Of a DNA stretch of 64,000 nt, positions 6,001-9,000 are shown one piece after another (the first letter of the stretch is position 1; each line of letters opens with the position of its first letter). Position numbers: made by a program. Source of the stretch: Escherichia coli (lineage in GTDB: Bacteria; Pseudomonadota; Gammaproteobacteria; Enterobacterales; Enterobacteriaceae); assembly GCF_024223415.1 (NCBI RefSeq), contig NZ_CP100500.1. One strand, given 5' to 3'.

Positions 6001-9000
6001 CGATCGACCATAAAGACTTTCTGCCGCGCCGCTTCCTCGCTTAATCCTTCGCGCTGGGTCTGGGCGATGATCATTTCGGCAATGCCGCATCCCGCTGAAC
6101 CTGCGCCAAGGAAGACGATTTTTTTCTCGCTTAACTGACCACCTGCCGCGCGGCTTGCTGCGATCAGGGTGCCGACTGTTACCGCCGCAGTGCCCTGAAT
6201 GTCATCGTTAAAGGAACAAATTTCATTGCGATAGCGGTTAAGTAACGGCATCGCATTTTTTTGTGCGAAGTCTTCAAACTGCAACAGCACGTCCGGCCAG
6301 CGTTGTTTCACAGCCTGGATAAATTCATCAACGAATTCATAGTATTCGTCGTCAGTGATACGCGGATTACGCCAGCCCATATACAGCGGATCGTTAAGCA
6401 GCTGTTGGTTGTTGGTGCCGACATCCAGCACCACCGGAAGGGTATACGCCGGGCTGATGCCGCCACAGGCGGTATAGAGCGACAGTTTACCGATCGGAAT
6501 GCCCATCCCGCCGATGCCCTGGTCACCAAGCCCCAGAATACGTTCACCGTCAGTCACCACAATCACTTTGATATTATGGTTTGGTACGTTTTGCAGAATA
6601 TCGTCCATATTGTGGCGGTTCTGGTAAGAAATAAACACGCCGCGTGAACGGCGGTAGATCTCAGAAAAACGCTCACAGGCTGCGCCGACGGTTGGGGTAT
6701 AAATAACAGGCATCATCTCATCAAGATGATTGTTTACCAGACGGTAGAAGAGGGTTTCGTTAGTGTCCTGGATGTTACGCAGGTAGATGTGTTTGTCGAT
6801 TTCGGTTTTGAATCCCTGATACTGGATCCATGCTCGTTCCGCTTGTTCCTCGATGGTTTCGACCACTTCCGGCAGTAACCCCAGCAGGTTGAAGTTACGG
6901 CGTTCTTCCATGCTGAAGGCACTGCCTTTATTTAACAACGGAAATTCCAGCAGTACAGGGCCAGCGTAAGGGATATAAAGCGAACGCTGTTTTTTTGTTT
7001 TTGGTTCCATGTCACTCACTCTTTTTTGAATATCCATCCCTGGGGGGCTTTTATCGTCTTTGCTTTACCGCCAGGGCGTCGGCCCCAAGTATAAAGCAGA
7101 TAAAAACAAAAACACCATTGCGCAGGCAATGGTGTTTAATCGTCATTGAGGACTGATGGTTATGAATTACTTTTCAGCGGGGCGTTTTCTGCCGGTTGGG
7201 TTATTTACCACGCTGGATTTGTCACCTTCGGTAACTATTTTGCGCTGGTTAGATATTTTATGGTCCAGTCCAAGAATATGACGTGCCTGACGGTTCGATT
7301 TCATTTTAACTCCTCAATCCTGTTGCTAGTTTTAAGGACAACATCGCCGTAGCGAAGAAACACGTGCTAAACCCCTAAATTAGGTTGCCGATCAAGCATA
7401 GCATCTTAAAGCGTAGGGTGCTGGCCACTGACCACATAATTGACCGTTTGCTGGTAGATATCACTGAGGATGTCGTTATCAGAAGCTTCCACCCATTTGG
7501 TCAGCTCCATGAGAATGTCATCTTCAGTGACAACACCGTGCTCTGCCCGAAGGCCTTGCTCAATGGCATTAACCAGAGCGGGTTCTGCTGTTGAATTTTC
7601 TGCCTGATAATAAGTAAACATAGTGATTCTCCGTGTCTGTGTATTTATAGTGTCTGCTACGGATCGCAGATTTATAAAGCACATTCAGCATGGCAAATAT
7701 TTGCCGCTTCGTTGTTAAGATTAGTCCTGGTTGATGATTTTTATATTTTAACCACATGATATTGATAGGTATTATTATTGTGGTGAGTTGAATGATATTG
7801 ATGCAATATCTCTTGAGATATATATTCCCGGTAATCTATTGTGGGAATTTAATTTAAGTGCAGAAGTAATATTTTCTGCCGGATTTTATTCGGAATATCC
7901 TGCTTATCCTCGTGCTGTTTCTCACGTAGTCTATAATTTCCTTTTTAAGCCCACAGGAGAGCAACAATGACAATCCATAAGAAAGGTCAGGCACACTGGG
8001 AAGGCGATATCAAACGCGGGAAGGGAACAGTATCCACCGAGAGTGGCGTGCTGAACCAACAGCCGTATGGATTTAACACGCGTTTTGAAGGCGAAAAAGG
8101 AACCAACCCTGAAGAACTGATTGGCGCAGCGCATGCCGCATGTTTCTCAATGGCGCTTTCATTAATGCTGGGGGAAGCGGGATTCACGCCAACATCGATT
8201 GATACCACCGCCGATGTGTCGCTGGATAAAGTGGATGCCGGTTTTGCGATTACGAAAATCGCACTGAAGAGTGAAGTTGCGGTGCCGGGTATTGATGCCT
8301 CTACCTTTGACGGCATCATCCAGAAAGCAAAAGCAGGATGCCCGGTCTCTCAGGTACTGAAAGCGGAAATTACGCTGGATTACCAGTTGAAATCGTAAAG
8401 CGTTGCCGGATGACGCGTCAGGCGCGTGAATGCCTGATGCGTTGTTAGCATCTCTACAGCGCCCGCCAGCACCGGAGCTCACGTCCGTCCTCCCTTATTG
8501 CTAATGATTGCCGGACTTCGCATCCGCTGGTTGAAAGGGGGCAACGTTCGTAGAAAAAACAGCCTTGCGGCAACGTGCGGTTTCCCGGCAGATCCGTTTT
8601 ACGTAATGCCCATTCTTCCTCCAGCGGTTTATCAATGGCGGGGAGGGAATCCAGCAATAATCGGGTGTATGGATGTGCCGGAGCCGTTAGCACCTGTTGC
8701 GCTTCCCCTAATTCCACAATCTGCCCGAGATACATCACCGCTACCCGATCGCTCATATGACGAATCACCGAGACATTGTGTGAGATCAGCACATAGGTCA
8801 GCCCGCGATTTACCTGTAGCGTTACCAGTAAATTGAGGATCTGCGCCTGCACGGAGATATCCAGCGCCGAGGTTGGCTCATCAAGCACAATCACGTCAGG
8901 CTGCGAAGAGAGTGCTCTGGCAATGGCGATGCGTTGCCGCTGCCCGCCGGAGAACGCATGAGGCAGGCGGTCGAGATACTCCGGACGAATACCCACCTGC

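What the first reader, a model, noticed from the sequence alone, without database searches (positions are those of the whole stretch)
7692..7705. Perfect 14 bp palindrome GGCAAATATTTGCC in the bdm-osmC divergent promoter region
The palindrome lies about 70 nt upstream of the bdm start, next to an RcsB-box-like sequence (7716..7728). I do not recognise it as a known operator, and it is a candidate dimeric regulator site for the stress-regulated bdm/osmC pair.
Basis: seen in the sequence. Interest (0 to 1): 0.3.

Follow-up and report, generated by a model that had tools for sequence, protein, structure and literature searches.

The report
Chance palindrome inside the bdm promoter
The 14-bp palindrome is real, but it lies inside the already known RcsB-activated core promoter of the E. 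coli bdm gene; only the half that forms the -10 region is conserved in other species, so it is most likely ordinary promoter DNA and not a new regulator-binding site.

Summary
GGCAAATATTTGCC is present at 7692-7705, 71 nt upstream of the bdm ATG (7621, minus strand), in the E. coli sra-bdm/osmC region.

It is not statistically unusual. The window holds 7 perfect 14-bp palindromes, against 4.6 +/- 2.2 in shuffles.

It is not a separate upstream operator. With the bdm transcription start at G7680, it spans -25 to -12 of the promoter. That start comes from a published promoter-fusion primer. It also gives bdm the same layout as two other RcsB-dependent promoters, rprA and osmCp1. The layout is:
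- RcsB box at 7728-7716 (-48..-36)
- weak -35 ACAACG
- 17-bp spacer
- TG, then the -10 hexamer CATGCT (7692-7687)

In 40 orthologous bdm loci the promoter-proximal half (AAATATTTGCC, plus the following AT.CTGAAT) is 82-100% conserved. The distal GGC is only 12-42% conserved. The three G:C dyad pairs are kept in only 17, 16 and 5 of 40 loci. The perfect palindrome is confined to close Escherichia relatives, and some E. coli strains break it.

The conserved block persists in genera where osmC is not the neighbour, so it belongs to bdm alone.

PurR-like, sigma-54 and terminator readings each fail a defining feature. An Escherichia-specific repressor site cannot be excluded (about 10%).

The parts
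7692..7705 (.). Perfect 14-bp palindrome GGCAAATATTTGCC, at -25..-12 of the bdm promoter
   Evidence: sequence; position relative to TSS 7680; only the 7692-7702 side is conserved
7716..7728 (-). RcsB box (bdm strand AGGACTAATCTTA), at -48..-36
   Evidence: Key positions 97-100% conserved in 40 orthologs. Same position and similar sequence as the box upstream of rprA and osmCp1. bdm is cited as an Rcs regulon member
7710..7715 (-). Weak -35 hexamer ACAACG (ortholog majority ACCACA), abutting the RcsB box
   Evidence: Inferred from the 17-bp spacing to the -10 hexamer. A7712 and C7711 are invariant in 40 orthologs. rprA has TCGACG at the same position
7694..7695 (-). TG of an extended -10 (-15/-14), followed by C at -13 (7693)
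   Evidence: 98% and 98% conserved; C7693 83%. rprA also has TGCC directly before its -10 hexamer, one base further upstream (TG at -16/-15). The function is inferred
7687..7692 (-). -10 hexamer CATGCT (orthologs mostly CATTCT), at -12..-7
   Evidence: A7691 98%, T7687 98%, C7688 95% conserved. It lies 7 nt upstream of G7680
7680..7680 (-). bdm transcription start (G), equivalent to K-12 NC_000913.3 position 1,556,339
   Evidence: [quoted passage not shown] G7680 is invariant in 40 orthologs. This start puts the RcsB box at -48..-36, as in rprA and osmCp1
7406..7621 (-). bdm coding sequence
7891..7903 (+). RcsB-box-like sequence CGGAATATCCTGC upstream of osmC, at -48..-36 of the osmC TSS at 7939. 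Used as an internal architecture control
   Evidence: Kim et al. 2012 TSS table: osmC TSS 28 nt upstream of the ATG, which is window 7939. Positions computed. That this is the osmCp1 RcsB box rests on my own recollection of the literature
7967..8398 (+). osmC coding sequence

Best explanation
The palindrome is an incidental dyad inside the known RcsB-activated core promoter of bdm. Read on the bdm strand, the promoter is laid out as follows:
- RcsB box AGGACTAATCTTA at -48..-36
- degenerate -35 hexamer ACAACG
- 17-bp spacer
- TG at -15/-14 and C at -13
- -10 hexamer CATGCT at -12..-7
- transcription start at G7680

The palindrome covers -25..-12. Its promoter-proximal half (ATATTTGCC) is conserved because it supplies the A/T-rich end of the spacer, the extended -10 TG, the -13 C and the first base of the -10 hexamer, all of which RNA polymerase sigma (sigma-70 or sigma-S) would read. 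Its distal half (GGCAA) is ordinary spacer DNA that in Escherichia happens to be the reverse complement of the proximal half.

RcsB bound at the box recruits or activates RNA polymerase on this weak -35 promoter. No dimeric protein needs to recognise the palindrome.

Shown here: the position of the palindrome relative to the start site used in a published fusion, the identical box-to-start geometry in three promoters, and the asymmetric conservation. Inferred: the roles of TG, -13C and the A/T tract, and which sigma factor is used.
For: 1. Start site. PMC10746276 states that its transcriptional fusions run from the promoter to the transcription start. Its bdm-lacZ reverse primer GGATCC-ACATTCAGCATGGCAAATATTTG maps to 7681-7703 with C7680 just before it. 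The start is therefore G7680 or T7681, and the palindrome lies at about -25..-12.

2. Geometry. With the start at 7680 the RcsB box is at -48..-36. The box upstream of the annotated rprA 5' end is at exactly the same position. So is the box upstream of the osmC start mapped by Kim et al. 2012.

3. Conservation. In 40 orthologous loci from about 10 genera, positions 7702-7691 are 80-100% identical to the window. Positions 7705, 7704 and 7703 are 42%, 30% and 12% identical.

4. Dyad pairs. The three G:C pairs are kept in 17, 16 and 5 of 40 loci, about 32% overall against 25% expected at random.

5. Distribution. The perfect palindrome occurs only in the window and the closest Escherichia loci L002 and L004. 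E. whittamii and locus L005 have GGTAA, and L040 has a 1-nt insertion.

6. Within E. coli. 658 of 5403 genomes differ within a 46-nt stretch around the palindrome. Three of four sampled point variants carry C7705T, which breaks the outer pair.

7. Chance. Perfect 14-bp palindromes are at chance frequency in the window.

8. Activator dependence. Kim 2012 found starts for sra and osmC but none for bdm, as expected for an activator-dependent promoter.

9. Ownership. The promoter block is conserved in Enterobacter and Lelliottia, where osmC is not within 1.5 kb.
Against: - The primary mapping paper (Francez-Charlot 2005, PMC1112044) could not be read. The start site is therefore taken indirectly, from a later primer design and from architecture.
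- The A/T core AAATATTT of the spacer is more conserved (82-100%) than a spacer usually is, and rprA and osmCp1 have nothing similar at that position. Some extra constraint is unexplained.
- Several other lineages carry their own inverted repeats around the same TTTGCC arm: GGCAAA-AATA-TTTGCC in two Enterobacter loci, CGCAAA-AATA-TTTGCG in RIT418 and ACAAAATTTTGT in Silvania. This could hint at selection for symmetry, although the arm spacing differs by 2 bp and most lineages lack it.
- The palindrome has 4 near-copies in the window against about 0.5 in shuffles and a mean of 1.0 total hits for control palindromes of the same form. All four are in coding sequence.
Confidence: 0.8

Rival explanations
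1. The palindrome is the operator of an uncharacterised dimeric repressor, possibly specific to Escherichia. The repressor would occlude the bdm core promoter between -35 and -10, as many LacI- or XRE-type repressors do.
For: The site is a perfect 7+7 dyad placed where repressors commonly act; PurR motifs lie between -10 and -35 in 44% of its targets. It is identical in 88% of E. coli genomes. Other lineages have their own quasi-palindromes around the same TTTGCC arm, two with apparently compensating changes in L027 and L036. The A/T core is unusually conserved.
Against: The dyad is not conserved in register: G:C pairs are kept in 17, 16 and 5 of 40 loci. Where arms recur they are 4 bp apart instead of 2, which a rigid dimer would not tolerate. 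E. whittamii, locus L005 and common E. coli variants break the symmetry on the non-conserved side only, with no compensation. There is a single copy, with no related intergenic site in 64 kb or at rprA. No paper mentions the sequence and no SELEX report for a factor at this site was found. Palindromes of this length occur at chance frequency.
Confidence: 0.1
2. TTGCCA (7696-7691), the proximal end of the palindrome, is the -35 hexamer of a second, constitutive sigma-70 promoter that uses TATAAA (7676-7671) as its -10. This was predicted from genomic SELEX with RpoD holoenzyme.
For: Shimada et al. 2014 list 'TTGCCA-15-TATAAA' for bdm-sra within a holoenzyme SELEX peak in this intergenic region. 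TTGCCA matches TTGACA at 5 of 6 positions.
Against: It is a sequence-based assignment inside a broad peak, not a mapped start. By my count the spacer is 14 bp to TATAAA, or 15 to ATAAAT, which is short for sigma-70. TATAAA is not conserved: positions 7674-7671 are 23-47% identical to the window. It would place the RcsB box at about -64..-52, unlike rprA and osmCp1. No bdm start was detected in uninduced cells. The simple promoter scan did not report it.
Confidence: 0.07
3. The palindrome is a PurR-like (LacI/GalR family) operator, since GCAAA-NN-TTTGC has the same half-sites and spacing as the PurR box ACGCAAACGTTTGCGT.
For: 10 of 16 positions match the PurR consensus, with identical GCAAA/TTTGC arms (sequence; motif).
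Against: Every PurR motif instance found by ChIP-chip has a central CG, whereas this site has TA. None of the 35 PurR-bound regions is at bdm/osmC. The arms are not conserved in orthologs.
Confidence: 0.01
4. It is a sigma-54 promoter (TGGCA...TTGC) or a hairpin (intrinsic terminator or cruciform).
For: aTGGCAaatatTTGCc resembles TGGCAC-N5-TTGCW. The terminator scan lists a 6-pair stem followed by a T-rich tail on the plus strand.
Against: Sigma-54: the GG and GC are separated by 9 bp, not the invariant 10 (counted), and the GGC is not conserved. Hairpin: the DNA folding energy is only -4.6 to -4.9 kcal/mol, with z-scores of -1.9 and -1.5. The stem is mostly A:T. There is no gene upstream on the plus strand to terminate. 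On the bdm strand the sequence lies upstream of the start and is not transcribed. There is no Rfam match.
Confidence: 0.02

Closest known systems
RcsB-dependent bdm promoter of E. coli (Francez-Charlot et al. 2005, J Bacteriol 187:3873; cited, full text not available here)
   Same: Same locus. An RcsB box abuts a weak -35. bdm is an Rcs regulon member induced by osmotic and envelope stress. The start site used by later workers fits.
   Different: Nothing differs in kind. The palindromic appearance of the spacer and extended -10 has, as far as I could find, simply not been commented on.
rprA and osmCp1 promoters (RcsB-activated, RcsA-independent)
   Same: A 13-bp RcsB box at -48..-36, a degenerate -35, a 17-bp spacer, and the start 7 nt after the -10 hexamer. 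rprA also has TGCC immediately before its -10 hexamer.
   Different: Neither has a palindrome or the AAATATTT tract in the spacer, so the RcsB mechanism does not need it.
Extended -10 / sigma-S-type -10 elements (TGn plus hexamer, with C at -13); consensus recalled from Typas, Becker and Hengge 2007, my own knowledge
   Same: TG at -15/-14, C at -13, A at -11 and T at -7 are all present and 83-98% conserved.
   Different: The hexamer CATGCT/CATTCT is a weak match to TATAAT/TATACT. Which sigma factor is used was not tested here.
HipB operators TATCC-N8-GGATA in the hipBA promoter, in the same window (a genuine dimeric operator)
   Same: Perfect or near-perfect dyad in a promoter region. One of them contains the window's 16-bp perfect palindrome at 47218.
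   Different: HipB sites come as four phased copies with conserved outer arms and variable centres. The bdm palindrome is a single copy with a conserved centre and one variable arm.
PurR operator ACGNAAACGTTTGCNT
   Same: GCAAA/TTTGC arms with the same spacing, and a location between -35 and -10 that is typical for PurR.
   Different: The centre is TA instead of the invariant CG. There is no PurR ChIP signal at this locus.

Membership tests
RcsB-activated (RcsA-independent) promoter | RcsB box resembling the boxes of known targets (GGA-N4-TCT core) | tested here: met
   AGGACTAATCTTA compared with the rprA box GAGACGAATCTGA. The ortholog majority AGGACGAATCTGA is 12/13 identical to rprA. GGA and TCT are 97-100% conserved.
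RcsB-activated (RcsA-independent) promoter | Box positioned immediately upstream of, or overlapping, the -35 (about -48..-36) | tested here: met
   -48..-36 relative to G7680, identical to rprA and osmCp1. The start site comes from the primer design of PMC10746276.
RcsB-activated (RcsA-independent) promoter | Expression depends on RcsB/RcsCD | not testable with these tools
   Literature only: bdm is listed in the Rcs regulon and Francez-Charlot 2005 is cited.
Extended -10 / sigma-S-type -10 element | TG at -15/-14, C at -13, A at -11, T at -7 | tested here: met
   T7695 and G7694 98% each, C7693 83%, A7691 98%, T7687 98% conserved. Positions are relative to start 7680.
Extended -10 / sigma-S-type -10 element | Transcription depends on these bases or on sigma-S | not testable with these tools
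   Needs promoter mutagenesis or in vitro transcription.
Palindromic operator of a dimeric transcription factor | Dyad symmetry maintained in orthologous promoters | tested here: not met
   G:C pairs kept in 17, 16 and 5 of 40 orthologs. The perfect palindrome occurs only in close Escherichia relatives.
Palindromic operator of a dimeric transcription factor | Related sites at other promoters of a regulon | tested here: inconclusive
   None found in intergenic DNA of the 64-kb window at up to 3 mismatches (the coding/intergenic labels use a gene table that is offset by 29-32 nt beyond about 11 kb) or at rprA. The whole genome could not be scanned with these tools.
Palindromic operator of a dimeric transcription factor | Symmetry beyond chance expectation | tested here: not met
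   7 perfect 14-bp palindromes observed against 4.6 +/- 2.2 in shuffles.
PurR / LacI-GalR operator | Central CG step between the half-sites | tested here: not met
   The centre is TA. All ChIP-derived PurR motifs have CG.
PurR / LacI-GalR operator | In vivo occupancy by PurR | tested here: not met
   No bdm/osmC region is among the 35 PurR-bound regions (literature).
Sigma-54 promoter | GG-N10-GC spacing of the -24 and -12 elements | tested here: not met
   TGGCAAATATTTGC has GG-N9-GC (counted). The GGC is poorly conserved.
Intrinsic terminator | Stable G+C-rich hairpin followed by a U-run at the end of a transcription unit | tested here: not met
   -4.6 kcal/mol with z -1.9. The tail CTTCGTTGTT is interrupted. 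No plus-strand gene lies upstream.

The most novel reading that the evidence does not exclude
In Escherichia the spacer of the bdm promoter has been turned into a perfect operator for an as yet unidentified dimeric repressor. The repressor would sit between the RcsB box and the -10 element and keep bdm-sra silent until Rcs signalling or another cue displaces it. The differently spaced inverted repeats in Enterobacter, Salmonella arizonae and Silvania would be lineage-specific versions of the same device.
Probability: 0.08. Interest if true: 0.4.

Novelty: already known. Interest (0 to 1): 0.08.

Why it matters
It matters little for new biology. The finding resolves into the known RcsB-dependent bdm promoter.

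The useful outcome is methodological. A perfect palindrome in an intergenic region is not evidence for an operator. It occurs here at chance frequency, and comparative data show that only the half overlapping the -10 region is under constraint.

The three-promoter comparison (bdm, rprA, osmCp1) gives a simple positional rule for recognising RcsB-activated promoters: a 13-bp RcsB box at -48..-36.

If the minority reading were true, it would add a repressor layer to a widely used Rcs reporter gene.

Tried and rejected
**Primary paper.** I tried to read the bdm promoter paper (doi and PMC1112044). It is not held.

**Start-site tables.** I looked for a mapped bdm start in genome-wide tables.
- Kim 2012 lists sra and osmC starts but none for bdm.
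- The Ettwiller 2016 and Mendoza-Vargas 2009 supplements gave nothing for this locus; at least the latter file was cut when stored.
- Thomason 2015 is not held.
- The Peano 2015 sigma-S ChIP-seq paper does not mention bdm or osmC.

**Literature searches.** Searches for a factor at this site ('bdm'+'SELEX', 'bdm promoter', 'RcsB box', and the sequence itself) returned only the RpoD-holoenzyme SELEX prediction and an unrelated primer.

**Readings rejected.**
- Sigma-54: the spacing is one base short.
- Sigma-32, sigma-E and sigma-28, checked by eye: spacing or key bases are wrong, and the bases involved are not conserved.
- PurR/LacI family: the centre is TA and there is no ChIP peak.
- Lrp consensus, checked by eye: 10/15 matches to a degenerate A/T-rich motif, which is not informative.
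- Terminator or cruciform: weak energy.
- A -10 at AATATT (7701-7696): rejected because it would put the RcsB box at -39..-27, unlike rprA and osmCp1.

**Other checks.**
- No Rfam family matches the region.
- The apparent excess of 2-mismatch copies in the window was followed up. All are in coding sequence. Control palindromes of the form GGC-W8-GCC give 0-3 hits. I treat the excess as a coding-composition effect, but this is not rigorously shown.
- The whole E. coli genome could not be scanned for the motif with the tools available.
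Full report
**Observation.** The window is the E. 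coli fdnGHI-yddM-adhP-maeA-sra-bdm / osmC-ddpFDCBAX region. GGCAAATATTTGCC sits at 7692-7705 and is a perfect 14-bp palindrome. osmC starts at 7967 on the plus strand.

**Is it more than chance?** No. The window holds 7 perfect palindromes of 14 bp or more. 200 dinucleotide-preserving shuffles give 4.6 +/- 2.2, and 99% of shuffles have at least one. Five of the other six lie in coding sequence, as placed by eye against the gene table. The one at 47219 is part of a HipB operator. At up to 2 mismatches the motif has four further matches in the window, against 0.53 total matches expected in shuffles. All four lie inside long ORFs. Control palindromes of the form GGC-W8-GCC give 0-3 hits. At up to 3 mismatches the only intergenic hit is the site itself, and GCAAA-N0-8-TTTGC occurs once more, in coding sequence. 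The coding/intergenic labels use the SCU-316 gene table, which is offset from the window by 29-32 nt beyond about 11 kb.

**Position in the promoter.** I could not read the primary promoter paper (Francez-Charlot 2005). [quoted passage not shown] Its reverse primer is CTCCTC-GGATCC-ACATTCAGCATGGCAAATATTTG. The genomic part maps to 7681-7703, and the base before it is C7680, which equals the last base of the BamHI site. The authors therefore take the start as G7680 (or T7681) on the bdm strand.

Read on the bdm strand, the promoter is:

CC AGGACTAATCTTA | ACAACG | AAGCGGCAAATATTTGC | CATGCT | GAATGT | G(+1)

That is:
- RcsB box at -48..-36 (7728-7716)
- a weak -35 hexamer
- a 17-bp spacer
- TG at -15/-14 and C at -13
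- the -10 hexamer CATGCT at -12..-7 (7692-7687)

The palindrome spans -25..-12.

**Independent check of the geometry.** I compared two other RcsB-dependent promoters.
- rprA: the annotated 5' end of RprA in K-12 puts the box GAGACGAATCTGA at -48..-36, with TCGACG as -35, a 17-bp spacer ending in TGCC, and TACTAT as -10.
- osmC: the Kim et al. 2012 table gives a start 28 nt upstream of the ATG, which is window 7939. That puts CGGAATATCCTGC (7891-7903) at -48..-36 as well.

Neither rprA nor osmCp1 has a palindrome in the spacer. The same Kim table has no bdm start, as expected for a promoter that is silent without its activator.

A scan of one genome per species returned 40 bdm loci from Escherichia, Salmonella, Citrobacter, Intestinirhabdus, Enterobacter, Lelliottia, Leclercia, Pseudenterobacter, Huaxiibacter, Silvania and others. 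I aligned the 200 nt upstream of the ATG.
- The RcsB box core (C-A-GGA....TCT-A) is 97-100% conserved.
- A7712 and C7711 of the -35 are invariant.
- The block AAATATTTGCCAT.CTGAAT (7702-7683) is strongly conserved: positions 7702-7691 are 80-100% identical to the window, 7688-7686 are 95-97%, and only T7690 (80%), the G/T position 7689 (20%) and A7685/A7684 (65%) fall lower.
- G7680 is invariant.
- The distal bases G7705, G7704 and C7703 are identical to the window in only 42%, 30% and 12% of loci.

In register, the three G:C dyad pairs are complementary in 17, 16 and 5 of 40 loci. The four A:T pairs are kept in 33-39 of 40, simply because AAATATTT is conserved. The perfect palindrome is found only in the window, L002 and L004. 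E. whittamii has GGTAAATATTTGCC, locus L005 has GGTAATTATTTGCC, and E. coli E69 has a 1-nt insertion.

Within E. coli, a 46-nt stretch around the site is identical in 4745 of 5403 genomes, and 658 carry one or two changes. Of five sampled variants, three have C7705T, which breaks the outer pair on the non-conserved side. One has C7682T near the start. One strain (MB51) has IS1 inserted inside the palindrome. So the constraint is asymmetric and follows the -10 side, not the dyad.

**Ownership.** osmC is the divergent neighbour of bdm only in Escherichia, Citrobacter, Salmonella and Intestinirhabdus. In Leclercia, Pseudenterobacter and Silvania it is about 0.8 kb away. In Enterobacter and Lelliottia it is not within 1.5 kb. 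The promoter block is conserved all the same. It therefore belongs to bdm and is not a shared bdm/osmC operator.

**Residual oddities.**
- The A/T core of the spacer is more conserved than I can explain from RcsB or polymerase contacts alone.
- Some lineages have their own inverted repeats using the same TTTGCC arm: GGCAAA-AATA-TTTGCC (L019, L025), CGCAAA-AATA-TTTGCG (L027), GCAAA-AATA-TTTGC (S. arizonae) and ACAAAATTTTGT (L036). The simplest reading is an ancestral ...GGCAAAAATATTTGCC... that decays differently in each lineage. The arm spacing is 4 bp instead of 2, which a rigid dimer would not tolerate, and most lineages have no repeat.

I therefore keep an unknown repressor as a roughly 10% rival.

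**Other rivals.**
- Shimada et al. 2014 predicted TTGCCA-15-TATAAA as a constitutive sigma-70 promoter for bdm-sra from a holoenzyme SELEX peak. It would use the proximal palindrome half as its -35. However, the spacer is 14-15 bp, TATAAA is not conserved, and no start is seen without induction.
- PurR-like operator: the arms are the same but the centre is TA rather than the invariant CG, and no PurR ChIP-chip region lies at this locus.
- Sigma-54: the spacing is GG-N9-GC rather than GG-N10-GC (counted).
- Hairpin or terminator: -4.6 to -4.9 kcal/mol, z -1.9 and -1.5. Nothing on the plus strand needs terminating, and on the bdm strand the sequence is upstream of the start.
- There is no Rfam match, and no paper contains the sequence in a relevant context.

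**Positive control.** The same window contains a textbook dimeric operator array: four TATCC-N8-GGATA HipB sites at 47121-47234, just upstream of hipB (the gene table is offset by about 32 nt here). They occur as multiple phased copies with conserved outer arms and variable centres. The bdm site shows the opposite pattern.

**Verdict.** The sequence observation is correct, and so is the RcsB-box call. The proposed function is not supported. What is there is the already known RcsB-activated bdm core promoter. Its spacer and extended -10 happen to read as a palindrome in E. coli. Novelty: already known. Interest: low.

Noticed in passing
window 47121-47234: Four TATCC-N8-GGATA sites (47121, 47149, 47189, 47217) just upstream of hipB. 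These are the classical HipB operators of the hipBA promoter. The last one contains the window's 16-bp perfect palindrome ATCCGCGATCGCGGAT. There were 7 matches to the pattern against 1.6 expected.
   Followed up: partly
L046 (E. coli MB51, NZ_CP073946.1), equivalent to window about 7701: An IS1 element is inserted inside the palindrome, after GGCAAATATT on the plus strand. This separates the bdm -10 region from its RcsB box and -35. It probably abolishes Rcs control of bdm-sra in that strain, or replaces the upstream promoter half.
   Followed up: no
window 7753-7800: A short hypervariable patch lies in the middle of the bdm-osmC intergenic region. It has many substitutions between this strain and K-12, while the flanking promoter regions are identical. 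Across 5412 E. coli genomes the 701-bp region is mostly 95-99% identical to the window.
   Followed up: no
window 7860-7889: A terminator-like hairpin GCAGAAGTAATATTTTCTGC followed by CGGATTTTAT lies on the plus strand, just upstream of the osmC RcsB box. K-12 has a 1-nt deletion in the 3' arm (TTTTC-GCC) that weakens the stem, so it is probably not functional.
   Followed up: partly
L010-L035 alignment, equivalent to window 7692-7682: In most non-Escherichia orthologs the -10 and discriminator region reads CATTCTGAATG, which is itself an 11-bp inverted repeat (CATTC-T-GAATG). E. coli has CATGCTGAATG. Its significance is unknown.
   Followed up: no
window 7655-7679 (bdm 5' UTR, +2..+26): The bdm leader contains strongly conserved positions (TTA at 7677-7675, TGC at 7668-7666, CCG at 7662-7660, A at 7658) across about 10 genera. 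This suggests a conserved 5'-UTR feature, either structural or a processing site.
   Followed up: no
window about 10000-11000, compared with L048: The window differs from its closest complete genome (SCU-316) by a 29-nt length difference around ddpC, which is annotated as frameshifted in SCU-316. A further 3-nt difference lies near 35 kb.
   Followed up: no
window 12109, 27790, 43193, 55318: Four 2-mismatch relatives of the palindrome (GGCGAATATTTTCC, GGCGAATTTTTGCC, GGCTAATAATTGCC, GGCAAAAATATGCC) lie inside long ORFs. That is more than dinucleotide shuffles predict (0.53 expected). It is probably a coding-composition effect, but this is not rigorously explained.
   Followed up: partly
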